Positions 4,586 to 30,310 are shown, counted from the stretch's first letter. The stretch: 64,000 nt of DNA from an uncultured Candidatus Saccharibacteria bacterium (GCA_964386905.1 CAYLUP010000002.1:522-64521); one strand, 5' to 3'. Program-made: numbers and translations. Notes: a model not told the origin generated them from the sequence alone.

Positions 4586-4648
4586 CTCACCCTGGTATGG
4601 CGGCGGAAGATCACTTCCGTCGCCTTTTCTTAAACATGAGGTGCATGT

Positions 4649-5875: not shown

Positions 5876-5888
5876 GTCACAGTACGAC

Positions 5889-5912
5889 CCGCCACTCCTG
5901 TGGCGGTTTTTT
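5889..5912 (+). terminator. Rho-independent terminator closing the peptide-rSAM unit
   Basis: ccgccactcctgtggcgg hairpin followed by tttttt, 14 nt after the rSAM stop. Confidence 0.65.
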
Positions 5913-5994
5913 AATGCATCTTCTTCTGGGGCGAGACAAGAAAATTAAGCCAATTATGTATGGCGTTATTATTGTATGGAAGTATAATGTTGAA

Positions 5995-6405: not shown

Positions 6406-6549
6406 TTTCCTGCATTACGCATGTAGCGAAGTCGGAATTCGCAGATTCATCAAGCTATTGAGGTCTCTCTGCTGATATCCCAAGCATGAGTGTTTGGGCC
6501 ATCACAAAATGTAAAAATAGCATATACTAAAGATATCATATCATTCACT

Positions 6550-7098: not shown

Positions 7099-7113
7099 AC
7101 AAAGGAGGGCAAA

Positions 7114-16619: not shown

Positions 16620-16770
16620 ACGAAACCCGCGTTGCGGGTTTTTGTTTTGTTGACATAATAAAATTTTAGTGTTGAAATATTTCTCTTTCATCACACTTTG
16701 GATTTCAGGCGTAATATATATCATAGAACAGGCATGATTATTGCCTCGTCTACTATAATTATCGCATATT

Positions 16771-17655
16771 ATGAAAAAGACATATTTTATTATTCCTGTG
16801 CTTTGTGCGCTTTTGCTTCAATCGACAGCTGCTTTTGCTGAAAGCCGAAAGGATGTTGGGCGACCAGAAGATAAAGTTCGTCCAGCTGTAACGCGTGAGG
16901 AAGAAAAACGACCAACCCCAATGCCTCTTGGTGATAAGGATTGGAAAAGAAACGATGCTGTAAAAGGGAAGGCATTTGTGGGAATTGTGAATACGGTGGG
17001 CACGACGAGTTTTACCATGAAGCTTACCGCACGTTATGAGGGTGCATCAACAGGAACAGTGTTTACTGTTGATACAACAAATGCGAAGTTCTTACAGTCT
17101 GGAATCGTGGAATCTGGAACTTCGACTGCAACAACAACAGGGAGCTCAACTCCAGCAACAATCTCACAGCTTGTTTCGGGTGCACGCGTGCTTGTGAATG
17201 GAACGATCGAAGGAACAACAATTACTGCAAAGAATGTGCACATTGGTATTCCCGCACGTGCAGAAAAACGCGTTGAAGATCGCAAGGAAAAACGCCCAGA
17301 AGTGCGTCCAATTGATTTAATTCAGCAGGGAGATGGGCAGCCAGTCATTGTCGGAATAGTAGGAACTACCACTGGCTCATCGACAACGTTCGTGCTTACA
17401 AACAAGAATAATGTTGCATACACAATTGATGCCGCAAATGCGAAGGTGTATCTCAAGGCCGCAACAGGTACAGTTGCTGACATAAAAACCGGAGATCGTG
17501 TTGTTGTACAGGGTACAGTGACCGGAACATCGATCGTTGCAACGACAGTGATTGATCATGGGCAAGTTGCTCTCAAGCGTATTGATGATAAGACGGGTCT
17601 TGTAAAACCAACAATCGCAGAGAAGGTGAAGGGTTTCTTCAAGAAATTCTTCTAA
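16771..17655 (+). CDS. Secreted protein with two tandem about 90-aa internal repeat domains
   Basis: Signal peptide; repeats FVGIVNTVGTTSFTMKL...ARVLVNGTIEGTTITAKNV and VIVGIVGTTTGSSTTFVLT...DRVVVQGTVTGTSIVATTV. Confidence 0.5.
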   Translation: MKKTYFIIPVLCALLLQSTAAFAESRKDVGRPEDKVRPAVTREEEKRPTPMPLGDKDWKRNDAVKGKAFVGIVNTVGTTSFTMKLTARYEGASTGTVFTVDTTNAKFLQSGIVESGTSTATTTGSSTPATISQLVSGARVLVNGTIEGTTITAKNVHIGIPARAEKRVEDRKEKRPEVRPIDLIQQGDGQPVIVGIVGTTTGSSTTFVLTNKNNVAYTIDAANAKVYLKAATGTVADIKTGDRVVVQGTVTGTSIVATTVIDHGQVALKRIDDKTGLVKPTIAEKVKGFFKKFF

Positions 17656-17662
17656 TAGAAAA

Positions 17663-17692
17663 ACACACAACAATACTGTTGTGTGTTTTTTG
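17663..17692 (+). terminator. Rho-independent terminator
   Basis: acacacaacaatactgttgtgtgt followed by tttttt. Confidence 0.6.
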
Positions 17693-17739
17693 TGTATTGT
17701 TTTCTGTTCTTTAGAGATAAAACTTGTTACAATGAAGAC

Positions 17740-19557
17740 GTGAAGTCGGTGTTCTTGAAAATACTGCCGATTCTTTTTCTCGTAGGAGCGTCCTCTGTCT
17801 TCTATGCTTTTTTCTATGCGGAAAAGGTTGGTGCACAGGTCTTTCGATTGTTTCCAGAATCGTGTGAGGGTGGATTTGATAATCCTGATCGTGCAGCAGG
17901 AGTGTACCAAGTGTCAACACTTGATCCGGATTTTATCACAACCGGAAATTCAGCGATTCTTTTTGATGGAAAATCAACACAAATGATCTGTCAGTCTTTC
18001 CGCGGAGATGTTCTGCCAAATACCCTTCCGAAGCAGATTGCAATAAAAATAGCCTGGAAGTACGGATATGACAAACAGGTTCTTCGTATGGAGGAAGAGG
18101 GTGTTGCTGTCTCTGCCAGTGGAACAACGGTATTTATCGAAGAAAGTGCACCGCTAGAGATCGCCCATGATATAGACACACCTATCGCTGATTCAACTGA
18201 ATCGGGTGTTGTGAACGCTTCTGAGGCAGTGGTTGGGGACACGGTTCGCATCCCAGAGGACCAGAATTCCACCCTTGATGATCCAGATCCTTCTTCTAGT
18301 GAAGGGGGGATACCTCCTCGTGAATCTCCAGTATTGAGTGAGGACAATGCTTCTCCTCTGCAAATAGAAGAAGCCACGCAGATAGTAGAGCCTGTTCCTG
18401 ACGTGTTGTCACCAACACAAGAACCCGCAGCTTTTGATGGCGCGATTCCACCCGCAGGAGAGTCTTCCCAAGAAGTATCTGCGCCCGCGCCAGAGCCTGC
18501 TCCGACTCCGACCCAGGAGGCCTCAAGCGTTTCTTCTCCTGACAGTGGTACAGTTTCTTTTTTAGAGTGGTTTATCGCGCGTGCATATGCAGAAGAGCTT
18601 GCTGTTGGTTCATCCCCCGAGTCTTCCTCTACTGCTCTTCTTGTGAAGACACCTCTCCCCGAAGATTCACAATCTCCTGTTGCTGATCAAGGGCAAATAG
18701 TAGACGCATCTCTTCTCACTTCTTCAACTTCTCCAGATACAGTCTTGGTGTCTTCATTGGATGAGGGTTCTTCTGCATCAGGAACCTTGTTATTCAATTC
18801 TGAGACAACGTTGATGGCATCATCAGCTTCATCTTCACTCACACAAGAGCCTGCCGTGTTCAACGAACAAGTGGTTCGGACATCTGGGCCAATAGAAGTG
18901 CTCTATTCCTTTGACGGTGACAGTTGGGAATCTGCCGGTTTTGCAGACCCGGAGAATTACCTGGAACATACATTTCCTCTCGTACTCGCGTCATCAACAA
19001 CGTGGGAAGAGCTTGCTTCTGTGCGTGTTGCAATTCGTACACATGCAGAAATAAATGATGTGCCACTTCTTATTCTTGTTGATGGCATGTGGCTTGAGGT
19101 TGCATATGAAGATACCGTTGACGATCCACACCCTATGCCGTCAGAATATCGAGGAGATGTTTTTCTTGGTTCTGTGACAAGCGACACAAAGACTGCACTT
19201 CTCGTTGAGAGACCGCTTCGCATTGGAACTACAACTGCATCTACAACAGAGTTGTGGCTCAGGGAAGGATTTGCGTCGAGTACGTCGTGGAAGTATGTTG
19301 CTGGAAGTGAACGAGTCGCCTCAACTACAAAAATATTTTTCCGAGAAGGACATATTGTCTGGATTGGCATCGATCGCGCACTCTGGGTTTTCAATCCATT
19401 AAGTGATGCTTTTGATTCGCTATCAATAGATCCGGTGGAGCCAACAGAGTATCTCTTGTCTGGACCTACTGGAGAAAAAACTGTTGTGTATGTAACGCAG
19501 CCGGATGATGTTGTTGCTTTTGTTGAATATGTGCCTGTTCCTCTCAATCTAGAATAA
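17740..19557 (+). CDS. Membrane-anchored extracellular protein with long acidic Ser/Pro/Thr-rich low-complexity region
   Basis: Probable GTG start at 17740, since the track ATG at 17683 lies inside the upstream terminator; N-terminal TM; about 250 aa of S/P/T/E/D-rich linker; globular C-terminal region. Confidence 0.45.
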   Translation: MKSVFLKILPILFLVGASSVFYAFFYAEKVGAQVFRLFPESCEGGFDNPDRAAGVYQVSTLDPDFITTGNSAILFDGKSTQMICQSFRGDVLPNTLPKQIAIKIAWKYGYDKQVLRMEEEGVAVSASGTTVFIEESAPLEIAHDIDTPIADSTESGVVNASEAVVGDTVRIPEDQNSTLDDPDPSSSEGGIPPRESPVLSEDNASPLQIEEATQIVEPVPDVLSPTQEPAAFDGAIPPAGESSQEVSAPAPEPAPTPTQEASSVSSPDSGTVSFLEWFIARAYAEELAVGSSPESSSTALLVKTPLPEDSQSPVADQGQIVDASLLTSSTSPDTVLVSSLDEGSSASGTLLFNSETTLMASSASSSLTQEPAVFNEQVVRTSGPIEVLYSFDGDSWESAGFADPENYLEHTFPLVLASSTTWEELASVRVAIRTHAEINDVPLLILVDGMWLEVAYEDTVDDPHPMPSEYRGDVFLGSVTSDTKTALLVERPLRIGTTTASTTELWLREGFASSTSWKYVAGSERVASTTKIFFREGHIVWIGIDRALWVFNPLSDAFDSLSIDPVEPTEYLLSGPTGEKTVVYVTQPDDVVAFVEYVPVPLNLE

Positions 19558-19565
19558 TAGTACTT

Positions 19566-22500
19566 ATGTTTTTCCATTCATATCACTCGAAAAGAATACG
19601 TGCAGTATGGTCAACCATGCTTCTTTTTGGATTGTGTTGTGGAATACTGTACGCTCCTCATCTGCTCACTTTTTTTGCAGGAGGTAGCGAGGTTGCGATG
19701 AAAAAGGCAGAGGCATCATACCAGTTTGCCCCAACAGGGGGAGGCATTGTGATGGGCACAGCGCCCGCTGTACGTGCTGCAACAACCGCAGCGACCGAAG
19801 GGGTGAATGTGGGAGACTGGAAGGGTGCGAAGGCCGACGACAATTTGCACTTTGGTATCACCTCAACGGCATCCGGATATAATGCGTATCTTGATATTGG
19901 AAATGTTGAGTTGCATGGAGCAAACAAGTTCATTATAGAGACAGAGTTTGATCTCGACGCGACAATTCCTCAGACCCGCGTGCAAATTTGCGACTGGGTC
20001 TCGTCAACGGGCGTGGCGAATGCTGCTGATGCACAGTGTACTGGTGGCGGTTGGAGGAATTTGAATCTGAACGACACAGCCATAAATACTGCAACGTATG
20101 GAAGATATAGTTGGCATGTGTATGATGGGTATTGGAATAGTACTGCGACAACGAAAATTGCGACACCATTGTCAAATTTCGTGAACGGCTCCCAATCAAT
20201 TCGTGTTCGGTATTTTTCTACAACAAGTAGCGCTGCCTCTATTGTACACATTGATTATTTGCGTGTGTTTGCAGTGGTAAACCCCGTATATGCTCCTGCT
20301 GGGGTGACACAGATTTCAGGGGGAACGCCTCTTGGTGATTATTCTCTTGCCGCAATGGGCGGTATGGGCCAGACGGGATCGGATAACGCGTACTTTCGGG
20401 TTCCTGGCACCGTAGGTGCTCCGTCAGACTTCTACTATACCTTTGCAAACGTGAAGTATTTTGCTGGTGCAAACACAATTCTCTTTCGTGCGGAGCATTC
20501 CTGTTCTGGAACAAATGCAGGGGTGACATATCTTCCAAAGATTTTTAATTTTAACTCTCAGGTATGGGACGATCTAACGTCTACTCCTATTGCGTGCTCG
20601 ACGACAGACGCAACCAATGCATGGGCACGAAGTAATATTTCAATGGGGGACTATGTCAGTAATGGAGAAGTACGTGTCGGGTGGTATGCAACAACAAACA
20701 GTACATTGGAAATCCGCAATGACATCGCGTACATTATGATAGGAGCGGTCACAAATGGTACCAGCGAGATCACTTTTGGAACAAATGCTGGTGGCTCTGC
20801 GGCGAGCACACAAGACCTCGATATGACAGGTATCAGTAGTACATGGGACATTCAGTCTGTTGATGAATCAAACACGTTCAGTACGCCAATATATGCCTTT
20901 GATAATGATGCTGATGCAACCGTTGAGGAAGCATCGGCTGCAAATATCGATTTCTCTCTTCGTCCTCCTACGAACGCTGCGCTTGCGGGAATTTATTTTG
21001 CGGGAAGGTACCGCTCGGGAACTGCTGGGACCGTGAATCTTGGTGTCGCTGATATGGCTTCTCGAACGAATACACAAGGTGGCTGGACGCAGGTTGGTGC
21101 AAACGGAACAACGGCATTATTGTATTCCGATAACATCAGTGTGAGAGCGGTCACTTCAGGAGGGTCTGCTGGTCTGTATCTCAACCCAGAAGATTTTATT
21201 ATGGCAGAAACAGGGCGCATGAAGATGCGTTTGCGCACATCGACATCTGGTGCGACGACAAATAATTCTATTGCGCAATGGGATTTCGCGATGCTATCGC
21301 TTTCTTGGATTGAAGACATTGAGCATCGTTCTGGTGATTCATCATATACGCCATCGGGTGGTGGAATTGTGACTGGAACAGGCCCTGCTATTCTTGCTGC
21401 CACAGCAGCAAATACCGAAGGAACGAATCTTGGGAGTTGGCGTGCAACAAAAGCGGATGATAATTTTCATTTTGGTATTACGTCGACTGCATCAGGATAT
21501 AACGCATATATCGATTTTGATGATGTCTACCTCAATGGTGCGAATATTATGCACATCCAAACGGAGTTTGACCTTGACGCGACTGCTCCGCAGACCCGCG
21601 TGCAAATTTGCGATTGGGTCTCATCAACGGGTGTGGCGAATGCCGCTGATGCACAGTGTACTGGTGGAGGCTGGAGAAACGTAAGTCCGAATGATGCGCT
21701 GATTACTACAACAACACCAACTGCGTACCATTGGCAAATCTATGATGGATACTGGAACAGCACTGTAGTTGCAAAAATTTCAACTCCGTTAACAAATTTT
21801 GTGGATGGAAATAATACGGTCCGCATTCGATACTATTCCACAACAAGTAGTGCCGGTTCGATCGTCCATATTGACCACGCTCGCATTATGCCTGTTGTGA
21901 ATCCGGTGTATTCCGCATCTGGAGCAACACAGATTACTGGGGGGACTCCTCTCGGCGATTATTCTCTCACGGCTATTGGTGGTGCAGGGCAGACGGGGTC
22001 GGATAATGCATATTTTCGTGTTCCTGGAACCGCGGGTGCTGTTTCTGATTTTTACCTTTCATTTCAAAATGTAAAAACATACCCTGGGGCAAATGCAATC
22101 CTCGTACGTGCAGAGTATTCATGCTCTACGACTGGCATTTCCCATCGGCCTAAGATATATAACTTTAACTCGTCGAGCTGGGAGGATTTGACGACTGCTT
22201 CCATTGCATGTTCGACAACAGATGCTACGAATGCCTGGGCAAAAGGGAATGTGACAATTGCAAACTATATTTCGAATGGAGAAATTCGTATTGGATGGCG
22301 AGGACTGGCAAACGGAACACAGGAAATTCGTATTGATCTTGCATACGTGATGATTGGTACGGTGAACAACGGAACATCTTCAATAACCTTTGGAACGAAC
22401 TCCGCAGGAACTGCTGCAAATACTCAAACGCTTGATATGAATGGGACTGCGAGCACATGGAATATTGCTTCGGTTGATGAGTCGAATACTCTCGGTTTTG

Positions 22501-23426
22501 CAATAAACGCAAACGATAACGACAACGATGCGACTGTTGAAGAGGCTACGGCTGCTAATATGGACTTTACGTTGCGAGTACCAGAAAATGCATTCCCTAC
22601 AGGAGTATTTTTTGCAGGACGATATATGTCGGGGGTAGCGGGGACGGTAAATCTTGGTGTTGCAGACTATCGAGGAAAAACGAGTACCCAGGGGGGCTGG
22701 GTTCAGGTTGGTGCAAATGGAACAACTGCTCTGACCTATTCTGATAATATTACAATGGTGTCGGTTGCTTCGGGTGGCGCTGCTGGCTTGTGGACGAATC
22801 CGCGAGACTTAGTGAATGATACGGCGTCTACTATGAACATGCGCTTAAGAACATCTCTCTCTGGAGCAACAACAAATAATTCTGTTGCGCAGTGGGACTT
22901 CGCAATGCTGTCTTTGCAGTGGATAGAAACGCCTCCGCCACCATCGACGTTATCCTTTAGTATTTCAGATAACACGATTGGATTCGGAACACTCACTGCC
23001 GCACAAATGCGTTTCGCTTCAGGTGGTGGAGGGGGAAGTACATTGCAAATTTCCGCACATACTATTTCTGCCGCTTCAAATGCACCTGGTGGATACGTGG
23101 TAACGATTGATGGAGAGACGTTGACGTATGGGCCATATGAAATTTCTGCAGCAGGTGCAACTCCGATTATACCAACAGCTGGAATTGAGCAATTTGGTAT
23201 CAATGCAATAAAGACGTTCACGACAGGGTCTGGGTCTCCGCTCTACCCGTACTCTGCAGGTTTTGCTTTTGATATTGGGAATTTGCCGTCCCCAATTCTT
23301 GCAAACTATACAAACGACAACATTGAGGACACGTATGATATGTATTATTTGGCGAATATCTCTGCGGATACCGAAGCGGGAGAGTACGCTGCAGTGGTGA
23401 CATACACAGCAACAGCAACATTTTAA
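19566..23426 (+). CDS. Giant surface protein (1286 aa): N-terminal TM/signal, two about 540-aa tandem repeats, C-terminal pilin-like (SCPU/Csu-like) domain
   Basis: The repeat unit recurs with 1620-nt period (19739 vs 21358); the C-terminal about 150 aa (LSFSISDNTIGFG...YLANISADTEAGEYAAVVTYTATATF) is shared with the next two genes. Confidence 0.6.
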   Translation: MFFHSYHSKRIRAVWSTMLLFGLCCGILYAPHLLTFFAGGSEVAMKKAEASYQFAPTGGGIVMGTAPAVRAATTAATEGVNVGDWKGAKADDNLHFGITSTASGYNAYLDIGNVELHGANKFIIETEFDLDATIPQTRVQICDWVSSTGVANAADAQCTGGGWRNLNLNDTAINTATYGRYSWHVYDGYWNSTATTKIATPLSNFVNGSQSIRVRYFSTTSSAASIVHIDYLRVFAVVNPVYAPAGVTQISGGTPLGDYSLAAMGGMGQTGSDNAYFRVPGTVGAPSDFYYTFANVKYFAGANTILFRAEHSCSGTNAGVTYLPKIFNFNSQVWDDLTSTPIACSTTDATNAWARSNISMGDYVSNGEVRVGWYATTNSTLEIRNDIAYIMIGAVTNGTSEITFGTNAGGSAASTQDLDMTGISSTWDIQSVDESNTFSTPIYAFDNDADATVEEASAANIDFSLRPPTNAALAGIYFAGRYRSGTAGTVNLGVADMASRTNTQGGWTQVGANGTTALLYSDNISVRAVTSGGSAGLYLNPEDFIMAETGRMKMRLRTSTSGATTNNSIAQWDFAMLSLSWIEDIEHRSGDSSYTPSGGGIVTGTGPAILAATAANTEGTNLGSWRATKADDNFHFGITSTASGYNAYIDFDDVYLNGANIMHIQTEFDLDATAPQTRVQICDWVSSTGVANAADAQCTGGGWRNVSPNDALITTTTPTAYHWQIYDGYWNSTVVAKISTPLTNFVDGNNTVRIRYYSTTSSAGSIVHIDHARIMPVVNPVYSASGATQITGGTPLGDYSLTAIGGAGQTGSDNAYFRVPGTAGAVSDFYLSFQNVKTYPGANAILVRAEYSCSTTGISHRPKIYNFNSSSWEDLTTASIACSTTDATNAWAKGNVTIANYISNGEIRIGWRGLANGTQEIRIDLAYVMIGTVNNGTSSITFGTNSAGTAANTQTLDMNGTASTWNIASVDESNTLGFAINANDNDNDATVEEATAANMDFTLRVPENAFPTGVFFAGRYMSGVAGTVNLGVADYRGKTSTQGGWVQVGANGTTALTYSDNITMVSVASGGAAGLWTNPRDLVNDTASTMNMRLRTSLSGATTNNSVAQWDFAMLSLQWIETPPPPSTLSFSISDNTIGFGTLTAAQMRFASGGGGGSTLQISAHTISAASNAPGGYVVTIDGETLTYGPYEISAAGATPIIPTAGIEQFGINAIKTFTTGSGSPLYPYSAGFAFDIGNLPSPILANYTNDNIEDTYDMYYLANISADTEAGEYAAVVTYTATATF

Positions 23427-23427
23427 T

Positions 23428-23452
23428 AACACGCCCGTTTGGGCGTGTTATG
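23428..23452 (+). terminator. Hairpin terminator
   Basis: aacacgcccgtttgggcgtgtt hairpin; downstream T-run is weak. Confidence 0.45.
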
Positions 23453-23460
23453 CTATATAT

Positions 23461-24510
23461 ATGATACACAGAATATGTTTTTGTTTCTCATTCTTCTTTT
23501 GTATGAGCATCGCATTTTTTGTTCCCGCTCAAACGCTTCTCGCTGCATCATTATTGCAGCTCTCTGACATGCTGTCTGCCCAACGCCCAAATGCTGAATC
23601 GAGTCATAGAATCCAGTTTCAAACTCCGACGGGTATTAATGCTCCTGGAGATACCATCGTCATCACCTTTCCTGCGGACTTTAATTTTACAGGCAAGGAT
23701 GCGACATTCGTAAATCTTTATCATGGTGCGACTGGCGGCGAAACAGAAGAGTATATTTCGACAACACCAACACTTGGATTTTGGGGCGCTGCTTTTTCTG
23801 GAACGCAGAATCGAGTGCTTACATTGACTCCTCCAGCTGATGGGGTGGGGCAAGCAGAGATTTTTGCGAATGAAATTGTCCGAGTAAGGTTAAATCCGAC
23901 TAACGCCCTTAATCCCTCGACTGCAGGAGACTATATCGTTGCCATCTCTGGCGGTTTTGGAGATACGGGAAGTATATTGGTCCCCATTATTAGTGATGAT
24001 CAGGTCTTCGTTTCTGCAACAGTTCCCCAAGCGCTTTCATTTTCAATTTCAGACAATAGTGTTGGTTTTGGTCCACTGTCTGCTTCTGTATCTCGTTATG
24101 CAACCGGAGATGGGACAGGGAGTGCTACTCCTGTCGTTGCGCATACAATAACCGCAAGCACCAATGCATCCGGTGGGTATAGTATTTCCCATGTGTCAGG
24201 GACGTTAACAAGCGGAGCGCATAGTATTGACGCCATTGGAGGAGTCCCATCAAGCCCAATTCCAGGATCAGAGCAGTTTGGAATTCGTGGAGACGCTGCG
24301 GGTGGAAAAGGAGTGATGTCAACACGGTATGGATCTGCTCAATATGCCCTCGATGCGAGTGGATTTCCAGATACTTTTGCTTATACTATGTTTGCAGGTC
24401 CAACTCCTGAGACAACGTATTCAATATATTATCTGGCAAATATTTCATCTGGTACCGAAGCAGGTGAATATGGTGCTCCTATAACCTATGTCGCAACTGC
24501 AATGTTTTGA
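23461..24510 (+). CDS. Secreted pilin-like protein, paralog 2 (N-terminal domain + SCPU-like C-terminal domain)
   Basis: Signal peptide; shares TPTG..A.DTI.ITFPADF.FT and ...SFSISDN..GFG...YLANIS.GTEAGEYGAPITYVATAMF with its neighbours. Confidence 0.55.
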   Translation: MIHRICFCFSFFFCMSIAFFVPAQTLLAASLLQLSDMLSAQRPNAESSHRIQFQTPTGINAPGDTIVITFPADFNFTGKDATFVNLYHGATGGETEEYISTTPTLGFWGAAFSGTQNRVLTLTPPADGVGQAEIFANEIVRVRLNPTNALNPSTAGDYIVAISGGFGDTGSILVPIISDDQVFVSATVPQALSFSISDNSVGFGPLSASVSRYATGDGTGSATPVVAHTITASTNASGGYSISHVSGTLTSGAHSIDAIGGVPSSPIPGSEQFGIRGDAAGGKGVMSTRYGSAQYALDASGFPDTFAYTMFAGPTPETTYSIYYLANISSGTEAGEYGAPITYVATAMF

Positions 24511-24592
24511 CATTATCCACATAGTGATGTGGATTTTATGTTATACTGAAATCAATAACATGTTCCATCATGTTGCGAGAAATTACTATACA

Positions 24593-25648
24593 ATGTTCTT
24601 CTTTATGATCAAAAAATATTCAGTATCTATCACGGCCCTTACACTTCTGGTGATTCTCTCTGGGTTACCGCAGTTTGTATTTGCTGCAGCACTCACAAAT
24701 CTTTCAGATACAATGTCTTCTGCAAAGATTAATACCGTATCGAGCCACGTCATTCGCTTTACAACGCCGACTGGTGCAAATGAAGCAACCGATACCATTA
24801 TCATTACTTTCCCAGCAGATTTTGATTTTACAGCAAAAGCTATTGGTTCAGTAACGTTTACACATGGCGCATCGACAGGCCTTGAAACAACTGAAACACT
24901 TGCCGCGGCTCCATCCGCTACTGCATGGGGGGCTGTCTTTTCGGGAACTGAAAATCGCATTTTAACACTCACAGCTCCAACAGATGGAACGGGAACTGCT
25001 GTTCTTGCCCCAGGAGATAAAGTTATTTTTACATACTCCAGCGCAAACTCTACAAATCCAAGTACTGCAAACTCCTACTCAGTTAGCATTGCGGGAACTT
25101 TTGGTGACACTGGTTCAATTTTGGTTAATGTTATCAATGATGACCAAGTTCTTGTTTCTGCAACTGTTCCACAATCACTGACCTTTAGTATCTCAGATAA
25201 CACAATTGGTTTTGGTTCATTAACTTCAGCATCGGCACGCTTCGCGACAGGTGATGCAAACGGGAGCGGAACAGAGACGGAAGCACATAATATTATTGTC
25301 GGAACGAATGCAGCAAATGGATACACGGTAAATCTTGCCGGTTCTACATTGACTTATGGTGGAAATACAATTACTGCGATTGGGGCAACAAACAGTGCAT
25401 CAACTCCAGGAAGCGAACAGTTTGGTTTGCGTATGAGTGCGTCTGGTGGGACTGGGGCAGTATCCGCACCATACGCAGCAGACGGATTCGCCTTTGACTC
25501 AGCGGCATTTCCTGATCAGATTGCATCTGCCGCGGGAGCATCTGCAAACACGACATACTCGGCACGCTATCTTGCAAACATCAGCCCATCGACTGAGGCT
25601 GGAGCGTATACTGCAACATTGACATATACTGCAACTGCAAACTTTTAA
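24593..25648 (+). CDS. Secreted pilin-like protein, paralog 3
   Basis: Start at internal Met (MFFFMIKKYS) giving a signal peptide; about 45 % identical to paralog 2 throughout; ends ...TYTATANF. Confidence 0.55.
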   Translation: MFFFMIKKYSVSITALTLLVILSGLPQFVFAAALTNLSDTMSSAKINTVSSHVIRFTTPTGANEATDTIIITFPADFDFTAKAIGSVTFTHGASTGLETTETLAAAPSATAWGAVFSGTENRILTLTAPTDGTGTAVLAPGDKVIFTYSSANSTNPSTANSYSVSIAGTFGDTGSILVNVINDDQVLVSATVPQSLTFSISDNTIGFGSLTSASARFATGDANGSGTETEAHNIIVGTNAANGYTVNLAGSTLTYGGNTITAIGATNSASTPGSEQFGLRMSASGGTGAVSAPYAADGFAFDSAAFPDQIASAAGASANTTYSARYLANISPSTEAGAYTATLTYTATANF

Positions 25649-25670
25649 AACCGGCTATGGCCGGTTTTTG
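25647..25670 (+). terminator. Rho-independent terminator
   Basis: aaaaccggctatggccggttttt. Confidence 0.6.
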
Positions 25671-25712
25671 CTATTGACTATTTATATAAGTAAGAGAAAA
25701 TAGAGATATCAT

Positions 25713-26696
25713 ATGAAGCACATATTTGCTCTTACCCTCATTATTACTCCACTCTTTTTTTGTGTGCCTAGCGCGGATGCGTTAACTGTTTCGCCTGCAA
25801 AACAAGAAGTTCGTGCGAATCCTGGACAGGTATTGAAAGGTGAAATCGAATTGTTTAATGAACAGAATGAGACGAAAACCTTTTATACCTCATTTGAGAA
25901 TTTTGAGTCACGAGGTGATTCAGGTGCACCATACTTTATTGGTGCACAGGGTGGCCTGGCAACATGGATGAAATCTGAGGAATCTGTCACAATCGCTCCT
26001 GGTGACCGCATGAAGGTGCCATACACGATTACGATTCCTCAATCCGCAAAACCGGGTGGGTATTTTGCTGCACAGTTTTTCGGGACTGAAAAACCAAAAA
26101 CAGGTGATGGAAACCTTGCCATTGGAGGAAAGATTGGCGTCCTCTTTTTGCTTCGTGTTAATGGTGACGTTGAGGAGGCGGCGGGCGTAACTGGCTTTAC
26201 TACTGAGCAGAATCAACGTTTCTTTGTCTCTACTCCAATCCGATTTGAATATTTTGTGAATAACACAGGTGGTGATCGCGTTGTTCCAAAAGGAACTGTT
26301 GTCATTCGAAATTCTTTTCGAATGACAACAGAGAAGATATCTGCAAATGACAAAGAGGGGAGTGTCTTACCAAATGGCTCAAGAACATTTCCGGTATGGT
26401 GGGGTGACCCAGCAGCTTCTCTCAATAATGTATGTGATTCCAAAGATGATACATGCGTTCAAGGTGGTGGATTTTTTAGCCGTGTTGCATATGAGTGGAA
26501 GAATTTTCACTTCGGATGGTACTCTGCAACACTTGATGTTGCTTGGGGGGAAAAAGGTTCAACGATGAATGATACAATCCATTTCTTTGTACTTCCATGG
26601 CATCTTCTCCTCGCTCTTGCTGTTATCGCACTCGTGCTTTGGGGCCTTTTGAAAAAATATAATGCGTATATTATCGCACGTGCTGCAAAACGATAA
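25713..26696 (+). CDS. Secreted beta-rich protein with C-terminal TM anchor (chaperone/DUF916-like cell-surface protein, unknown function)
   Basis: Signal peptide; LTVSPAKQEVRANPGQVLKGEIELFNEQNETKTF strand pattern; C-terminal hydrophobic helix followed by KKYNAYIIARAAKR; translationally coupled (TAATG) to the dockerin gene. Confidence 0.4.
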   Translation: MKHIFALTLIITPLFFCVPSADALTVSPAKQEVRANPGQVLKGEIELFNEQNETKTFYTSFENFESRGDSGAPYFIGAQGGLATWMKSEESVTIAPGDRMKVPYTITIPQSAKPGGYFAAQFFGTEKPKTGDGNLAIGGKIGVLFLLRVNGDVEEAAGVTGFTTEQNQRFFVSTPIRFEYFVNNTGGDRVVPKGTVVIRNSFRMTTEKISANDKEGSVLPNGSRTFPVWWGDPAASLNNVCDSKDDTCVQGGGFFSRVAYEWKNFHFGWYSATLDVAWGEKGSTMNDTIHFFVLPWHLLLALAVIALVLWGLLKKYNAYIIARAAKR

Positions 26697-27739
26697 TGTT
26701 CCTTCTTTATCGAAAATTTTCTTTTCGTGTCGCACTCGCCTTTGCGTTTTGTGTACCTCTCGCCGCACTTGCTGCCATTACCGTAGAAATTACGGCTACT
26801 GTCCCTGGGTGCGGCGATAGTGTTATTGGCGTTGGTGAGCAGTGCGACACAACAAATCTTGGGGGTGCGACATGCTCTACGCTTGGGTATGCCTCTGGCG
26901 TTTTGTCATGTTCCAGTGTGTGTACGTATGTTACAAGTGCATGCAGTGTGACGCCGGTAACGCCTCCGAGTGGTGGTGGTGGCGGCGGCGGATATTATGC
27001 TGTTCCAGCAACAAATATCGTCTTTTCCGGGAAAGCATATCCACGAAGTACGGTGACCATATTAAAAGATGCTCAAGTTGTTGCAACGACCATTGCCGAT
27101 GCACAGGCTGAATTCCAAACAACGATATCGGGTATTTCATCGGGAAATTATAATTTTAGTGTCTACTCAGAGGATGATCGCGGTGTGCGCTCCTCGCTTT
27201 TGTCTTTTCCTATAAGTGTGAGTTCTGGGGTGACAACAAAAATTGGAAATATCTTTATTGCGCCAACACTTTCGGCAGATAAAACTGAAGTTCGAAAGGG
27301 TGACGATATTGTATTGTTTGGAAGAACAACCCCAAATGCAGAGGTGTCTATCTCAGTTCATTCTTCAGTTGAGATGTTTTTCAAGCGACTCGCTGATGCA
27401 AGTGGTGCCTACCTTTTTCGTATTAATACACTCCCACTAGAGTATGGGGCACATGCAGCAAAAACAAAATCAGCGCGCGATGAGGAGCTGAGTTCCTTCT
27501 CGCAATCAGTTGGTTTTACTGTTGGAATAAAAAATATTGCATCTCTGTCGCAACCTGGCGTGCATCAGCAATGGTCAAAAGGTGATGTCAATAAGGATGG
27601 CCGTGTGAATCTTGTGGATCTTTCTATTGTGGCGTATTGGTATAAAAATGCGTCTTACCCAAAGCATCTTGATTTAAATGGAGATGGCCATGTGAATCTG
27701 GTCGACTTAAGTATCCTTATGTATTTTTGGACTGGCTAA
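26696..27739 (+). CDS. Secreted Cys-rich protein with Gly7 linker, two Ig-like beta domains and a C-terminal type-I dockerin
   Basis: C-terminus GDVNKDGRVNLVDLSIVAYWY...DLNGDGHVNLVDLSILMYFW = two canonical Ca-binding dockerin repeats; N-terminal about 50-aa domain with 8 Cys. Confidence 0.8.
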   Translation: MFLLYRKFSFRVALAFAFCVPLAALAAITVEITATVPGCGDSVIGVGEQCDTTNLGGATCSTLGYASGVLSCSSVCTYVTSACSVTPVTPPSGGGGGGGYYAVPATNIVFSGKAYPRSTVTILKDAQVVATTIADAQAEFQTTISGISSGNYNFSVYSEDDRGVRSSLLSFPISVSSGVTTKIGNIFIAPTLSADKTEVRKGDDIVLFGRTTPNAEVSISVHSSVEMFFKRLADASGAYLFRINTLPLEYGAHAAKTKSARDEELSSFSQSVGFTVGIKNIASLSQPGVHQQWSKGDVNKDGRVNLVDLSIVAYWYKNASYPKHLDLNGDGHVNLVDLSILMYFWTG

Positions 27740-27740
27740 T

Positions 27741-28589
27741 ATGCGTACATATTTCATTGTTATTTTTATGGCACTCTTTGCTCCCGCAAGCGTGTTCGCC
27801 TACGAGTTTCGTGCAGAGGTGCGCGAAACACAGATTGGGCCAGGGTCTACGGTTATTGTTGATCTGAAACTTGCAGCGCGGACACTAGTAAATGCGTGTG
27901 AAGGATATCTTCAGTATGACAGTTCCGCATTTGATATCGTTCGTATTTCTTCTGGAAATTCTGTTGTTAATTTTTGGATCGAGGAGCCAAAAGTCACTGA
28001 GTACGGGATTCGATTTTCAGGAGCAACTCCTGGTGCATTCTCTGGGCAAGATAATCACGTGTTGAGTGTGGCATTTCGTGCGAAGCGAGAAGGCATTTTT
28101 GATTTTGTTCCCCATTCTTCTGTCGTATATTTGTCTGACGGGCATGGTACATCACTTGTGCCTCGAGCTCACGCAGCAGCTGTCTCCGTTGATGGTTTTG
28201 CTCGTAGTGAGCATGTCGTGGATGGAGACACTGAGCTTCCTGAGGATTTTACCCCATTTATTGTTGAGCATCCTGATATGTTTTCTGGAGAGAAAACTCT
28301 TATCTTTGCGACGCAAGATAAAGGATCGGGAATCTCACATTATACTGTCAAAGAGGGATTGCTCGGGTGGTATCGCACAGCATCTTCTCCCTATCTCTTG
28401 AAACATGATGCATTGCATCGTACAATATATATACGAGCCTATGACCATGCGGGGAATATCCGCACAGTCATCATTCCCGCTACTGTACCGCGTTCAGCAT
28501 TCTCTTGGTGGATGGTTGGTGGACTCACCGTTCTTACCTGTTTCGCACTTTTGACAATAGTATGGAAAAAATATTTCATCAGACGATAA
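27741..28589 (+). CDS. Membrane-anchored cohesin-domain protein 1
   Basis: Signal peptide; cohesin-like LKLAARTLVNACEGYLQYDSSAFDIVRISSGNSVVNF...HVLSVAFRAKREGIFDF; C-terminal TM plus KKYFIRR stop-transfer. Confidence 0.7.
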   Translation: MRTYFIVIFMALFAPASVFAYEFRAEVRETQIGPGSTVIVDLKLAARTLVNACEGYLQYDSSAFDIVRISSGNSVVNFWIEEPKVTEYGIRFSGATPGAFSGQDNHVLSVAFRAKREGIFDFVPHSSVVYLSDGHGTSLVPRAHAAAVSVDGFARSEHVVDGDTELPEDFTPFIVEHPDMFSGEKTLIFATQDKGSGISHYTVKEGLLGWYRTASSPYLLKHDALHRTIYIRAYDHAGNIRTVIIPATVPRSAFSWWMVGGLTVLTCFALLTIVWKKYFIRR

Positions 28590-30280
28590 TTGCTTTTTGC
28601 TTTCTTGCATTCCCATGCATATCTTTTGCTGCAACCCTGTCGCTTGCACCGTCAGTATTTTCGCCACAGGTTGGGAGTACTTTTGTCGTTAATGTGAATG
28701 TGTCGACTCCTGATAAGGTGATGAATGCCGCTTCAGGAGTTCTTTCGTACGACCCTGCGCTTCTTGAAATTATCTCTGTGTCCAAGACAGGGTCTATCGT
28801 GTCCTTGTGGGCAGAGGAGCCACTATTTGACAATACTAGCGGCCGCATGAGTTTTGAGGGTATTTTATATGCGCCAGGGTATTCTGGCCCGTCTGGCAAA
28901 ATTTGCGCAATTACATTTAAGGCAAAAGCCGTTGGCAGTACAGTACTTCGCTTCACAAATGGCTCGGTGTTGGCAAGTGATGGATATGGGGAGAATATTC
29001 TTTCTTCCATGAGCCCGCTCTCTCTTGCTGTTGGACAGCCCACCAAGAAGCAAGTTCCTATCTCGCTTGCTGGCGAGGTAGAGAAAGAGCCTGTTCGAAT
29101 ATTTGGGCGTGCAGTTGCAATTACATCAAGTTCACACCCAGATGCGAACGCGTGGTATGCAAATAATTCTCCCGTGTTTTCTTGGGTTCTCCCCGAGGGT
29201 GCACTCGAAGTTAAGACATTAATTAGTCGTCTCAGCTCACGAAATCCAACTGTCCCGTACATTCCACCAATTGCTGAGAAAAAGGCGGAAAAAGTGATTG
29301 ATGGGACACATTATTTTAGTCTTCAGGTTCGGACGAGGGATGGTTGGTCTCCAACATCACGATATCAGGTGAACATTGATACTGTCCCGCCAAATAAATT
29401 TACTGTCGCTATTGTAAACGAAGACCGAGATAAAAAAACTCCCCCACATATTGCATTCGAAACACAAGATGCACTTTCTGGTGTCAGTCATTATGAAGTG
29501 CGTGTTGATGATGGCGAGGTTATGCGGACATCTTCTCATGACATGAAAGATCCGTTTGCGATTCCCGCACTTCCTCCTGGTGGTCATATTGTTACTGTTT
29601 CCGCCTTTGACCACGCAGGGAATATGACGCAAGCAGCACTAGATTTTACGGTAGATGCCATTCCTTCTCCTAAAATCATTGCGCTTCCACAGGTTGTCTA
29701 TGGGGGAGAGCGGTCAGAGATTCGAGGAATCTCATCCCCGTTTGATACTGTTTTCGTGAGATATTCTGATGGTAATACCTTTATACATGAAGAATCAGTA
29801 ACGACGGGGGAGGCTGGGGCATTCGTGATACCAGTAACCTCAAAAATTCCACGTGGTTCATATATAGTTTCTGCGTATGCTGTTGATCGGTCTTTGTCGC
29901 GAAGTTACGAAACAACACCAGCTATCCTCTCTCTCCGGCCGTTTTATGTAAAGGCGTCATTTCTTGCATTTGCGCTTTTTGGCGTTTTGTTCCTTGTTGC
30001 TATTGGGGCAACTATCGCTATGTGGTTATATGCGCGTCGACACGGAGAACGTGTTGCACGTGTTGCTCTTATGCGCATTCGATATGCTGAACAGGAGACA
30101 GAAAAGGCCTTTGATATTTTAAGAGAGGAAATTATTGAACGTGTTGCGCTGCTTAAGGCAAAGAAGCCAAAAAGGAAATATACTGCAGAAGAAGTACACT
30201 TCCTTGAGACACTTGAGAGCTATCTTGGAGAGGCGAAGGATGTCATCGTTTCAGATGTTCGAAAAGTTATTGAAAAATAA
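28562..30280 (+). CDS. Membrane-anchored cohesin-domain protein 2 (cohesin + Ig-like domains + TM + cytoplasmic coiled tail)
   Basis: N-terminal cohesin: VVNVNVSTPDKVMNAASGVLSYDPALLEIISVSKTGSIVSLW...KICAITFKAKAVGSTVLRF (compare CipA cohesins); TM at about aa 480; 28-nt overlap with the upstream gene. Confidence 0.75.
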   Translation: MEKIFHQTIIAFCFLAFPCISFAATLSLAPSVFSPQVGSTFVVNVNVSTPDKVMNAASGVLSYDPALLEIISVSKTGSIVSLWAEEPLFDNTSGRMSFEGILYAPGYSGPSGKICAITFKAKAVGSTVLRFTNGSVLASDGYGENILSSMSPLSLAVGQPTKKQVPISLAGEVEKEPVRIFGRAVAITSSSHPDANAWYANNSPVFSWVLPEGALEVKTLISRLSSRNPTVPYIPPIAEKKAEKVIDGTHYFSLQVRTRDGWSPTSRYQVNIDTVPPNKFTVAIVNEDRDKKTPPHIAFETQDALSGVSHYEVRVDDGEVMRTSSHDMKDPFAIPALPPGGHIVTVSAFDHAGNMTQAALDFTVDAIPSPKIIALPQVVYGGERSEIRGISSPFDTVFVRYSDGNTFIHEESVTTGEAGAFVIPVTSKIPRGSYIVSAYAVDRSLSRSYETTPAILSLRPFYVKASFLAFALFGVLFLVAIGATIAMWLYARRHGERVARVALMRIRYAEQETEKAFDILREEIIERVALLKAKKPKRKYTAEEVHFLETLESYLGEAKDVIVSDVRKVIEK

Positions 30281-30310
30281 AACACGACAACGTCGTGTGT
30301 TATTTTTGGA
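30281..30310. terminator. Bidirectional terminator
   Basis: acacgacaacgtcgtgt followed by tattttt; convergent genes. Confidence 0.55.

What the first reader, a model, noticed from the sequence alone, without database searches (positions are those of the whole stretch)
19566..25648. Three paralogous secreted proteins sharing a C-terminal ...YLANIS.(S/A/P)TEAGEY...TYTATA(T/N/M)F domain reminiscent of SCPU/Csu-type pilins, but no usher
The common about 150-aa C-terminal module has an alternating beta-strand pattern and an aromatic C-terminus like spore-coat-protein-U/Csu pilin domains (SFSISDN.iGFG ... GY.v...g.L.....I.A.G ... EQFG.R ... Y.A....YTATA.F). The two smaller paralogs add a second conserved N-terminal domain (TPTG..A.DTI.ITFPADF.FT). 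No outer-membrane usher (about 800-aa beta-barrel) is present, so if these are pilins the assembly route is non-canonical.
Basis: inference. Interest (0 to 1): 0.6.

Follow-up and report, generated by a model that had tools for sequence, protein, structure and literature searches.

The report
Pam-type pilus operon in a Parcubacterium
The three proteins are subunits of the recently described usher-free "Pam" pilus of ultra-small CPR bacteria. They sit in a conserved eight-gene operon that appears to add a giant tip adhesin and a cohesin-dockerin anchor not described for that system.

Summary
Three adjacent + strand genes (1286, 349 and 386 aa) share a ~165-aa C-terminal domain at 48-51% identity, and the two small ones also share an N-terminal domain.

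All three C-termini score above the curated cut-off of NCBIfam NF058581, "Pam pilus system pilin subunit". This family was defined by a 2026 cryo-EM preprint on Ca. Mycosynbacter amalyticus. Those pilins polymerise by donor-strand exchange with membrane-anchored chaperones and no usher.

New here:
- 53 related genomes, named mostly as Parcubacteria, keep the order tip protein, two-domain pilin, two-Ig-domain membrane protein, dockerin protein, two membrane cohesin proteins.
- Every two-domain pilin carries the linker DDQVxV(S/T)ATVxQ. The giant protein has PPPP there and a duplicated 530-aa module, so it is probably a tip adhesin.
- The dockerin protein begins, right after its signal peptide, with a copy of the linker strand (ITVEITATVP). 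I infer that it caps the pilus base and docks it onto the membrane cohesins.
- In two loci the equivalent protein carries its own transmembrane helix instead.

Polymerisation, chaperoning and anchoring are all inferred, not shown.

The parts
17683..19557 (+). Upstream gene u1 (624-aa ORF; likely start GTG 17741). It has a signal/anchor sequence, a long acidic Ser/Pro-rich region and a ~220-aa C-terminal domain. It is probably the first gene of the operon. Function unknown.
   Evidence: The gap to the giant gene is 8 nt. A 15-bp terminator hairpin (17658-17691) lies just upstream. Homologues sit upstream of the tip gene in 9 related loci. No Pfam or NCBIfam hit.
19566..23426 (+). Giant tip-adhesin candidate (1286 aa): signal peptide, two copies of a ~530-aa module, PPPP, then the Pam pilin C-terminal domain. 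It has the acceptor domain but no donor linker.
   Evidence: NF058581 scores 58.3 bits over residues 1163-1286. The linker-HMM score is -1.1. The junction reads WIETPPPPSTLSFSISDN.
19746..21314 (+). Module 1 of the giant protein (residues 61-583).
   Evidence: 68% identical to residues 601-1121. Most homologues are ~745 aa, that is one module plus the C-terminal domain. No Pfam or PDB sequence match.
21366..22928 (+). Module 2 of the giant protein (residues 601-1121).
22944..23423 (+). C-terminal pilin domain (CTD) of the giant protein (residues 1127-1286).
23461..24510 (+). Pilin paralogue P2 (349 aa): signal peptide, N-terminal beta-sandwich domain, linker DDQVFVSATVPQ (residues 179-190; nt 23995-24030), CTD. 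It is a lineage-specific extra pilin and may act as an adaptor.
   Evidence: NF058581 scores 64.9 bits. The linker HMM scores 20.9 bits. It is 50% identical to P3. Nearly all related loci have only one such pilin.
24515..24534 (+). Terminator-like hairpin just after P2, followed by TGTTATACT, which I read by eye as an extended -10-like sequence (about 24539-24547), ahead of P3.
   Evidence: Consensus matches only.
24605..25648 (+). Major pilin candidate P3 (347 aa from ATG 24605; the longest ORF starts at 24488): signal peptide, N-terminal domain, linker DDQVLVSATVPQ (nt 25139-25174), CTD (nt 25175-25645).
   Evidence: NF058581 scores 84.7 bits. More than 1100 homologues were found and the 120 listed are 61-80% identical. 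In the AF2 model (pLDDT 87.8) both domains are all-beta and the linker is coil at pLDDT ~60.
25713..26696 (+). Membrane-anchored two-Ig-domain protein (327 aa): signal peptide, two beta-sandwich domains, C-terminal TM helix. Candidate chaperone (like PamC/D or WxLIP).
   Evidence: AF2 model pLDDT 86.8, with a helix at 296-326. Foldseek matches RbmA, E. faecium WxLIP (best TM-score 0.40-0.47) and the chaperone CsuC. It follows the pilin in 47 of 53 loci.
26296..26331 (.). Perfect 16-bp inverted repeat with a 4-nt loop inside the chaperone-candidate gene. Unexplained.
   Evidence: It is unique in the window.
26696..27739 (+). Dockerin protein (347 aa): signal peptide, donor-like strand, Cys-rich module, Gly linker, Ig domains, dockerin (residues 295-342; nt 27578-27721). 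Candidate pilus terminator and anchor adaptor.
   Evidence: Dockerin_1 scores 44.7 bits and Big_6 33 bits. Its N-terminus matches the linker HMM.
26774..26806 (+). Donor-like strand AITVEITATVP at the mature N-terminus of the dockerin protein (residues 27-37).
27741..28589 (+). Coh1 (282 aa): signal peptide, cohesin-like domain, Ig-like domain, C-terminal TM helix.
   Evidence: Pfam Cohesin scores E 0.0012 here, and 12 of 30 orthologues match it (best E 2e-9). The hydrophobic C-terminus is visible.
28505..30280 (+). Coh2 (591-aa ORF; likely start ATG 28562): signal peptide, cohesin, Big_13, TM helix, cytoplasmic tail.
   Evidence: Cohesin scores 36.4 bits against a cut-off of 24.1.
30282..30298 (.). 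Bidirectional terminator-like hairpin that closes the operon.
   Evidence: The next gene is on the - strand.

Best explanation
The region 17.7-30.3 kb is one operon for a Pam-type pilus of a CPR (Parcubacteria-group) bacterium. Such a pilus polymerises by donor-strand exchange and needs no usher. All products are exported by Sec.

Proposed roles:
- P3, and the extra paralogue P2, are shaft pilins. The strand between their two domains (DDQVxVSATVPQ) fills the open C-terminal Ig-like domain of the preceding subunit.
- The 1286-aa protein has the acceptor domain but a PPPP spacer instead of the donor strand. It can therefore only occupy the distal tip. Its duplicated 530-aa module would be the receptor-binding part, as in FimH/PapG-type two-domain adhesins.
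- The 327-aa protein, with two Ig domains and a TM helix, holds subunits at the membrane and primes them, as proposed for PamC/PamD.
- The dockerin protein carries only a donor strand, at its mature N-terminus. It would cap the proximal end. Its dockerin would bind the cohesins of the two membrane-anchored proteins Coh1 and Coh2 and so tether the pilus to the cell.

Shown here: family membership, domain layout, which proteins carry the linker motif, conserved gene order, and the fold classes.
Inferred: polymerisation, tip position, the chaperone role, and cohesin-dockerin anchoring.
For: 1. All three proteins exceed the curated cut-off of NF058581. The structure and mechanism of that family are taken from the cryo-EM preprint.
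2. The AF2 model of P3 has two all-beta domains. The 14-residue linker between them is unstructured and has low confidence, as expected for a strand used in trans.
3. The linker motif is present in all 48 complete two-domain pilins extracted from the related loci, plus P2 and P3. It is absent before the CTD of the giant protein and of most tip-class proteins.
4. Tip-class proteins keep the CTD, but their N-terminal parts fall into at least 8 unrelated groups of 249-2095 aa. Among the 150 best of 957 representative clusters, the domain is always at the extreme C-terminus of proteins of 169-3243 aa.
5. The gene order tip, pilin, two-Ig TM protein, dockerin protein, Coh1, Coh2 is conserved in dozens of loci.
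6. After the pilins themselves, the best matches to a linker HMM among 1658 ORFs are dockerin-protein N-termini. Twelve of 44 score >=4 bits, all within the first 60 residues, against 7 of 1557 other ORFs.
7. In L047 and L051 the protein after the chaperone candidate is signal peptide, donor-like strand, Big_1 domain and TM helix. That is a directly anchored equivalent, matching the PamR architecture in the preprint.
8. Dockerin and cohesin domains are confirmed by Pfam.
9. The two-Ig TM protein matches the chaperone CsuC and WxLIP by fold.
Against: - No complex was modelled and no coordinates could be inspected. The open groove, strand insertion, chaperone binding and the cohesin-dockerin pairing are all untested.
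- Foldseek on the whole pilin model returns only generic two-Ig adhesins at low TM-score.
- The two-Ig TM protein matches RbmA at least as well as it matches CsuC. The preprint uses RbmA-likeness to define the anchor PamR, so this protein could be the anchor rather than the chaperone. It has no PapD Pfam hit and no NCBIfam hit.
- The linker-HMM scores of dockerin proteins are low in absolute terms (4-11 bits), and orthologues are not independent observations.
- Some loci have a dockerin protein with no adjacent cohesin gene (L015, L016). Others have a short version with neither dockerin nor TM helix (L009, L013, L014).
- The giant protein passes the NF058581 cut-off only narrowly.
- No evidence bears on what the 530-aa module binds.
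Confidence: 0.7

Rival explanations
1. A WxL-like surface display complex rather than a filament. As in Firmicutes WxL clusters, a large and a small protein with a shared C-terminal domain would each be held on the cell by strand insertion from a membrane-anchored two-Ig-domain protein (WxLIP), without polymerising.
For: - The gene logic is the same: a large protein with a variable N-terminus plus the shared C-terminal domain, small proteins with that domain, and a two-Ig-plus-TM protein (PMC10599100).
- The best TM-scores of the 327-aa model are to E. faecium WxLIP, including the entry bound to a long WxL protein (9i1y, 9i25).
- Ten of 40 orthologues give weak WxLIP_PGBD hits.
Against: - No Pfam WxL match in 45 domains, and the domain contains no tryptophan (read directly from the sequences).
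- The curated family hit is to Pam pilins, for which filaments were solved.
- A strictly conserved inter-domain linker, present in two-domain subunits and missing in tip-class proteins, is what polymerisation predicts. Simple display does not predict it.
Confidence: 0.12
2. The pilus reading is right, but the dockerin and cohesin genes are an unrelated neighbouring surface module. The pilus base would be held by the 327-aa protein itself, acting like PamR (RbmA-like with a TM helix), with or without a chaperone role.
For: - RbmA is the top Foldseek hit of the 327-aa model (E 1e-10), and PamR is described as RbmA-like with a TM helix.
- Minimal loci L052 and L053 have only a PamT-like protein, a pilin and this protein.
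- Some loci lack cohesin genes.
Against: - The mature N-terminus of the dockerin protein reproduces the pilin donor motif across orthologues that otherwise differ, with or without the Cys-rich module.
- The N-terminus of the 327-aa protein does not match that motif and is modelled as part of its first domain.
- L047 and L051 replace the dockerin protein with a donor-strand protein that has its own TM helix, in the same position.
Confidence: 0.15
3. Archaic chaperone-usher (SCPU/Csu-type) pilins whose usher is encoded elsewhere in the genome.
For: - The C-terminal signature (alternating strands, TEAG.Y..TYTATA.F) resembles CU and SCPU subunits.
- Three weak Pfam Fimbrial hits.
- The CsuC chaperone is among the fold matches of the 327-aa protein.
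Against: - No SCPU, Usher or PapD Pfam hit.
- The candidate chaperone is membrane-anchored.
- The donor strand is internal, not an N-terminal extension.
- All homologues carrying an informative organism name are CPR bacteria. From general knowledge, CPR bacteria lack an outer membrane in which an usher could sit.
Confidence: 0.03

Closest known systems
Pam pilus of Ca. Mycosynbacter amalyticus (PamA/PamB/PamT/PamC/PamD/PamE/PamR; bioRxiv 10.64898/2026.03.03.709456; NCBIfam NF058581, NF058579)
   Same: - The C-terminal pilin domain matches above the curated cut-off.
- Pilins have two domains, with the donor strand as the inter-domain linker.
- A tip protein lacks the linker.
- A membrane-anchored two-Ig-domain accessory protein is present.
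- All parts are Sec-exported, there is no usher, and the system is restricted to CPR bacteria.
   Different: - The tip protein is not a single domain. It is fused to large, hypervariable N-terminal regions, here 2 x 530 aa.
- There is one accessory two-Ig protein instead of PamC, PamD and PamR.
- The N-terminal pilin domain has no NCBIfam match.
- The mature P3 sequence has no cysteines.
- The proposed base subunit is a dockerin protein, with separate membrane cohesins.
- No ATP synthase gene was found among the 39 window ORFs that were scanned.
- The clade is the Parcubacteria group, not the Saccharimonadia/Microgenomatia reported as the main carriers. The preprint mentions neither dockerin, cohesin, adhesin nor Parcubacteria.
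Chaperone-usher pili (Fim/Pap; archaic Csu/SCPU)
   Same: - The principle of donor-strand complementation.
- An adhesin with an acceptor pilin domain but no donor strand at the tip (FimH/PapG logic).
- A terminator that donates but does not accept (PapH logic).
- A two-Ig-domain chaperone fold (CsuC among the matches).
   Different: - No usher and no outer membrane.
- The chaperone candidate is membrane-anchored.
- The donor strand is internal, between two domains.
- No Pfam SCPU, Usher or PapD match.
WxL / WxLIP clusters of Firmicutes (PMC10599100; PDB 9i1y, 9i25)
   Same: - The cluster logic: a small protein and a large protein share a C-terminal domain, next to a protein with two Ig domains and a TM helix.
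- WxLIP gives the best TM-scores for the 327-aa model.
- Strand insertion from WxLIP into WxL has been predicted.
   Different: - No WxL motifs or Pfam WxL match.
- No filament is known for WxL systems.
- The sequence-level link to WxLIP is below threshold (E 0.02-0.07).
Cellulosome-type cohesin-dockerin anchoring
   Same: A secreted dockerin protein lies next to cell-anchored cohesin proteins. The dockerin has both calcium-binding repeats (DVNKDGRVN, DLNGDGHVN).
   Different: No enzymes or scaffoldin are present. The anchors use TM helices rather than SLH or sortase signals. The proposed cargo is a pilus.

Membership tests
Pam pilus system (CPR) | C-terminal pilin domain recognised by NCBIfam NF058581 at or above its curated cut-off (55 bits) | tested here: met
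   58.3 bits (giant), 64.9 (P2) and 84.7 (P3).
Pam pilus system (CPR) | [quoted passage not shown] | tested here: met
   The AF2 model of P3 has 10 strands over residues 30-176, a coil linker at 177-190, and an all-beta domain at 191-346. P2 aligns throughout. The giant protein does not have this layout.
Pam pilus system (CPR) | C-terminal domain is an open (truncated) Ig fold completed by the linker of the next subunit | not testable with these tools
Pam pilus system (CPR) | PapD/FimC-like chaperone with a C-terminal TM helix encoded in the operon | tested here: inconclusive
   The 327-aa protein has two beta-sandwich domains and a TM helix. Its fold matches include CsuC (E 1e-7), but also RbmA and WxLIP. 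No PapD Pfam hit and no NCBIfam hit.
Pam pilus system (CPR) | PamR-type terminator: N-terminal donor strand, FnIII-like domains and its own TM helix | tested here: not met
   No such protein is in the window. The only donor-strand-only protein ends in a dockerin. PamR-like layouts occur in L047 and L051.
Pam pilus system (CPR) | Single-domain tip pilin PamT (NF058579 equivalog, cut-off 240 bits) | tested here: not met
   Best scores are 48.1 bits (P3) and 31.4 bits (P2), and the giant protein gives no hit. The tip candidate here is a 1286-aa fusion protein.
SCPU / Csu archaic chaperone-usher pilins | Match to Pfam SCPU (PF05229) | tested here: not met
   None of 45 domains hit at E<=10. No hit for the three full proteins at E<=1.
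SCPU / Csu archaic chaperone-usher pilins | Outer-membrane usher and soluble periplasmic PapD-like chaperone in the cluster | tested here: not met
   No Usher or PapD Pfam hit in 39 window ORFs. The candidate chaperone is membrane-anchored.
WxL cluster (Firmicutes) | C-terminal WxL domain with two Trp-x-Leu motifs (Pfam WxL) | tested here: not met
   No Pfam WxL hit. The three domains contain no Trp (sequences).
WxL cluster (Firmicutes) | WxLIP: DUF916 + DUF3324 + TM helix | tested here: inconclusive
   The layout is the same, and WxLIP gives the best TM-scores (0.40/0.47). Pfam WxLIP_PGBD hits are below threshold in 10 of 40 orthologues (best E 0.022).
Sortase-assembled Gram-positive pili | C-terminal LPXTG sorting signal and a pilin-specific sortase gene | tested here: not met
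   All three proteins end in ...TATA(T/M/N)F with no sorting signal. No sortase hit among the scanned ORFs.
Cohesin-dockerin system | Pfam Dockerin_1 and Cohesin domains above the gathering score on separate neighbouring proteins | tested here: met
   Dockerin_1 scores 44.7 bits (cut-off 22.9). Coh2 Cohesin scores 36.4 bits (cut-off 24.1). Coh1 scores 19.5 bits here, but 12 of 30 orthologues match (best E 2e-9). Binding itself was not tested.

The most novel reading that the evidence does not exclude
A donor-strand pilus whose base is not anchored by an usher, a sortase or the subunit's own TM helix. Instead a 'plug-and-socket' would hold it: the terminal subunit plugs the last pilin with an N-terminal donor strand, and its dockerin binds membrane cohesins non-covalently. 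This anchor could be released or exchanged.

The distal end would carry interchangeable giant adhesins that define host range in Parcubacteria.

A corollary is that Pam systems and the Firmicutes WxL/WxLIP clusters descend from one monoderm strand-complementation machinery.
Probability: 0.4. Interest if true: 0.8.

Novelty: new variant of a known kind. Interest (0 to 1): 0.6.

Why it matters
Parcubacteria are among the most abundant uncultured bacteria, and how they attach to hosts or surfaces is essentially unknown. This operon gives three testable handles:
- a highly conserved, probably abundant shaft pilin (more than 1100 homologues found; the 120 listed are 61-80% identical);
- a tip protein whose N-terminal part is swapped between lineages, making it a candidate determinant of host or substrate specificity;
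- a possible new way of fixing a pilus to a single-membrane cell, through cohesin-dockerin binding.

It also extends the Pam system beyond the classes where it was reported. In addition, it suggests that the long-puzzling WxL clusters of lactic acid bacteria and enterococci may work by the same strand-complementation logic.

Tried and rejected
- Pfam on the three proteins gave nothing.
- Sequence and profile searches of the PDB gave no meaningful hit for P3, the C-terminal domain profile, the 327-aa family profile or the giant-module profile.
- Foldseek of the whole P3 model against the PDB gave only generic two-Ig adhesins (ClfB, SdrG, CNA) at TM-scores of about 0.25. This is uninformative because the two domains are flexibly linked.
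- The exact-sequence look-up of the annotated P3 protein found no contig, and cluster member names were empty. The window's own organism is therefore not named. The Parcubacteria assignment rests on the names of homologues.
- SCPU, WxL, sortase and type V pilus readings were rejected for lack of defining features.
- A weak profile match of the C-terminal domain to the third part of the giant module is not significant (i-E 10).
- Four 'tip-class' proteins (L008, L038, L041, L043) carry a partial linker-like EVTATV. They may be minor pilins with a different N-terminal domain, so the tip class is not uniform.
- Literature searches found no paper linking cohesin-dockerin to CPR pili, or WxL to donor-strand exchange.
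Full report

Yes. The + strand carries three consecutive ORFs at 19566-23426 (1286 aa), 23461-24510 (349 aa) and 24488-25648 (386 aa). Homologue N-termini and the local sequence indicate that the third protein really starts at ATG 24605, giving 347 aa.

Their last ~166 residues align with 48-51% identity and 66 invariant columns. A profile of 45 such domains finds exactly three copies in the 64-kb window (E 1.6e-54 to 2.4e-71) and nothing else. A profile of the N-terminal domain finds only the two small proteins.

Each of the three has an N-terminal signal-peptide-like hydrophobic segment. No usher-like or PapD-like gene was found among the 39 largest ORFs of the window.

**2. What family is it?**

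Pfam is silent. NCBIfam release 20 is not. All three C-termini exceed the curated cut-off (55 bits) of NF058581, 'CPR_Pam_pilin_C, Pam pilus system pilin subunit', with 58.3, 64.9 and 84.7 bits. There are weaker sub-threshold matches to the tip-pilin model PamT.

The family comes from a 2026 preprint, bioRxiv 10.64898/2026.03.03.709456. It reports the following:
- Cryo-EM of filaments from the Saccharimonadia parasite Ca. Mycosynbacter amalyticus identified PamA and PamB.
- The linker of one subunit completes the C-terminal domain of its neighbour.
- From structure prediction, the authors propose membrane-anchored PapD-like chaperones (PamC/D), a single-domain tip pilin without linker (PamT) and an RbmA-like membrane-anchored terminator (PamR).
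- They explicitly propose that no trans-envelope machinery is needed.

The SCPU/Csu family label is not supported. Forty-five domains scanned at E<=10 gave no SCPU or WxL hit, and only three marginal Fimbrial hits.

**3. Structure predictions**

P3 was modelled with 78 homologues (pLDDT 87.8). It has an all-beta N-terminal domain (ten strands, residues 30-176) and an all-beta C-terminal domain (191-346). Between them, the 14 residues NDDQVLVSATVPQS are modelled as coil with the lowest confidence in the protein (about 60). The low pTM (0.49) fits two independently placed domains. This is what a strand used in trans should look like in a monomer model, but it is indirect evidence.

The 327-aa protein encoded just downstream was modelled with 40 homologues (pLDDT 86.8). 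It is a signal peptide, two beta-sandwich domains and a C-terminal TM helix at residues 296-326. Its PDB matches are:
- V. cholerae RbmA (E 1e-10);
- E. faecium WxLIP, alone and bound to a long WxL protein (E 2e-10; best TM-scores 0.40-0.47);
- the archaic chaperone CsuC (E 1e-7).

Ten of 40 orthologues give sub-threshold WxLIP_PGBD hits, and none hits PapD. Its most conserved segment is GGKIGVLxLLRVxG, which follows a Gly-rich, poorly modelled loop. I read this, by analogy only, as a candidate complementing strand.

**4. Comparative genomics**

A scan of one genome per species found 53 loci. Where the record or a homologue carries an informative name, it is from the Parcubacteria group: Nomura-, Harrison-, Kaiser-, Taylor-, Wolfe- and Ryanbacteria, and Paceibacterota. 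A few are Magasanikii-, Falkow- or Doudnabacteria. Some bulk-submitted MAG titles are clearly unreliable.

The loci share one gene order:
- a protein of 249-2095 aa that ends in the C-terminal domain;
- a ~350-aa two-domain pilin;
- the two-Ig TM protein;
- a ~350-aa dockerin protein;
- a ~290-aa cohesin protein with a TM helix;
- a second cohesin protein with a TM helix.

The window has the same order at 19566-30280, plus the extra pilin P2. It is bounded by terminator-like hairpins at 17658-17691 and 30282-30298. A conserved upstream gene (17683-19557) probably belongs to the same transcript.

The P3 family is large and tightly conserved: more than 1100 hits, of which the 120 listed are 61-80% identical. 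A profile of the three window C-terminal domains finds 957 clusters (at 50% identity) among 1.84 billion representatives. In all 150 best hits the domain is at the extreme C-terminus. Host proteins range from 169 to 3243 aa, and 42 of the 150 exceed 1000 aa.

**5. Who donates and who accepts?**

All 48 complete two-domain pilins from the loci, plus P2 and P3, carry DDQVxV(S/T)ATVxQ immediately before the first strand of the C-terminal domain.

The giant protein has WIETPPPPSTLSFSISDN at that position. A tetraproline cannot form the strand, and its linker-HMM score is -1.1. Most other first-position proteins also lack the motif. Their N-terminal parts fall into at least eight unrelated groups. 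The window's group has one or two copies of the 530-aa module. A protein that can accept but not donate can only sit at the distal end. Combined with a hypervariable, often huge N-terminal region, this is the FimH/PapG logic of a tip adhesin.

The 530-aa module has no Pfam or PDB sequence relative. Its fold and ligand remain unknown.

One small group (L008, L038, L041, L043) has a partial linker-like EVTATV. It may consist of minor pilins instead.

**6. The dockerin protein as base subunit**

The mature N-terminus of the window's dockerin protein is AITVEITATVPGCGD. Pilin linkers read QVLVSATVPQ or, in many genomes, QVDITATVPQ.

The strand is kept directly after the signal peptide in orthologues that otherwise differ. 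Some have a Cys-rich module and others only a Gly/Pro spacer, for example STVTITAVVPDPNAP and SVTITATVPGAPSGGGG.

I built an HMM of the 12-residue pilin linker and searched all 1658 ORFs (398,000 residues) of the window and the loci. After the pilins, it ranks dockerin-protein N-termini first. Twelve of 44 score at least 4 bits, all within the first 60 residues, against 7 of 1557 other ORFs. The Fisher p of 1.6e-15 is inflated by shared ancestry.

The protein has no acceptor domain. It ends in a canonical two-repeat dockerin (44.7 bits). The next two genes encode cohesin domains on proteins with C-terminal TM helices.

Natural variants support a functional link:
- In L047 and L051 the gene after the two-Ig protein encodes a signal peptide, a donor-like strand (ANVNVAATVDSK), a Big_1 domain and its own TM helix. 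This is the PamR layout.
- Loci with a dockerin-type protein almost always have a neighbouring protein with a signal peptide and a TM helix in the Coh1 position, even when it is too divergent for BLAST.

Exceptions exist. L015 and L016 have no adjacent cohesin gene. L009, L013 and L014 have short versions with neither dockerin nor TM helix.

My reading is that the dockerin protein caps the proximal end by donating its N-terminal strand, and the cohesin-dockerin pair replaces a covalent membrane anchor. This is inference. The preprint mentions neither dockerin, cohesin, adhesin nor Parcubacteria, and literature searches found nothing on it.

**7. Proposed mechanism, with status**

| Step | Status |
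|---|---|
| Sec export of all parts | Signal peptides read from sequence |
| The 327-aa protein holds subunits at the membrane | Inferred from fold and synteny |
| The giant adhesin starts the fibre | Inferred from the missing donor strand |
| P2, then many P3 subunits, add by linker insertion | Inferred from family membership and motif conservation |
| The dockerin protein terminates the fibre and docks on Coh1/Coh2 | Inferred from the motif, the domains and the natural TM-anchored variant |

A terminator-like hairpin lies after P2 and is followed by TGTTATACT, which I read by eye as an extended -10-like sequence. Together they might give P3 its own high expression. These are consensus matches only.

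**8. Rivals**

- A non-filamentous WxL-like display complex is the most serious alternative. The cluster logic and the WxLIP fold match are striking. However, the family hit and the donor-linker pattern favour a polymer.
- The 327-aa protein may be the anchor (RbmA/PamR-like) rather than, or as well as, the chaperone.
- A classical chaperone-usher system with a remote usher is very unlikely.

**9. Verdict**

The finding is real, and its core is now explained by a very recent discovery. The three proteins are new members of the Pam pilin family.

The Parcubacterial operon around them is a distinct variant. It has fused hypervariable tip adhesins, a single WxLIP-like accessory protein and a dockerin/cohesin module that probably anchors the pilus. 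The operon architecture also hints at a common origin with Firmicutes WxL clusters.

Confidence is about 0.7 for the overall reading, and about 0.5 for the cohesin-dockerin anchor specifically.

Noticed in passing
window 17683-19557 (+): A 624-aa protein with an N-terminal hydrophobic segment, a ~270-aa acidic Ser/Pro-rich low-complexity region and a ~220-aa C-terminal domain. It lies 8 nt upstream of the giant gene. Homologues occupy the same upstream position in 9 related loci. It has no family match and may be an unrecognised pilus component.
   Followed up: partly
window 26296-26331: A perfect 16-bp inverted repeat with a 4-nt loop (CTGTTGTCATTCGAAA ttct TTTCGAATGACAACAG) inside the coding region of the 327-aa protein. 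It is unique in the window, and the encoded peptide is not conserved in homologues. It could be an mRNA processing or stability element, or a protein-binding site.
   Followed up: partly
window 24515-24547: A terminator-like hairpin directly after the P2 stop codon is followed by TGTTATACT, which I read by eye as an extended -10-like sequence, ahead of the major pilin gene. This may uncouple P3 expression from the tip and adaptor genes.
   Followed up: no
window 16771-17655 (+): A 294-aa secreted protein made of two similar ~100-aa halves (GIV.T....SFT...T...A.......G.RV.V.GT..GT.I.A..V), flanked by strong terminator hairpins at 16622-16642 and 17658-17691. No family match.
   Followed up: no
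window 3594-7683 (+): An IS200-like transposase (3594-4310) is followed by a radical SAM/SPASM enzyme (4649-5875) and three small ORFs without family matches (5872-6405, 6490-7098, 7114-7683). This could be a peptide-modification cluster.
   Followed up: no
L008 11968-12927: A 319-aa chimeric ORF with the N-terminus of the dockerin protein (including AITVEITALVPGCGD) fused to the C-terminal half of the two-Ig TM protein. It sits between intact copies of both genes. It could be a local rearrangement, or a natural fusion of the donor strand to the membrane anchor.
   Followed up: no
L047 6976-7752; L051 11921-12709: Proteins of about 260 aa with a signal peptide, a donor-like strand, a Big_1 domain and a C-terminal TM helix, directly after the two-Ig protein. 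These loci also have two tandem two-domain pilin genes and no dockerin or cohesin genes.
   Followed up: partly
L052 2609-5191; L053 7298-10127: Minimal three-gene versions (a PamT-like 232-aa protein, a ~360-aa pilin and the two-Ig TM protein). L052 is from a record titled Saccharimonadales; the L053 record is titled 'uncultured Gammaproteobacteria', one of the unreliable bulk titles. In L053 the cluster is followed by a REP-associated tyrosine transposase and a 1663-aa protein with a XerC/D-like N-terminus.
   Followed up: partly
window 55060-55133: tRNA-Thr (TGT) lies inside the mechanically listed ORF 54958-56016, so that ORF is probably spurious.
   Followed up: no
window 60927-62903 and 2004-3308 (+): Two large ORFs (658 aa and 434 aa) have no Pfam match.
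   Followed up: no
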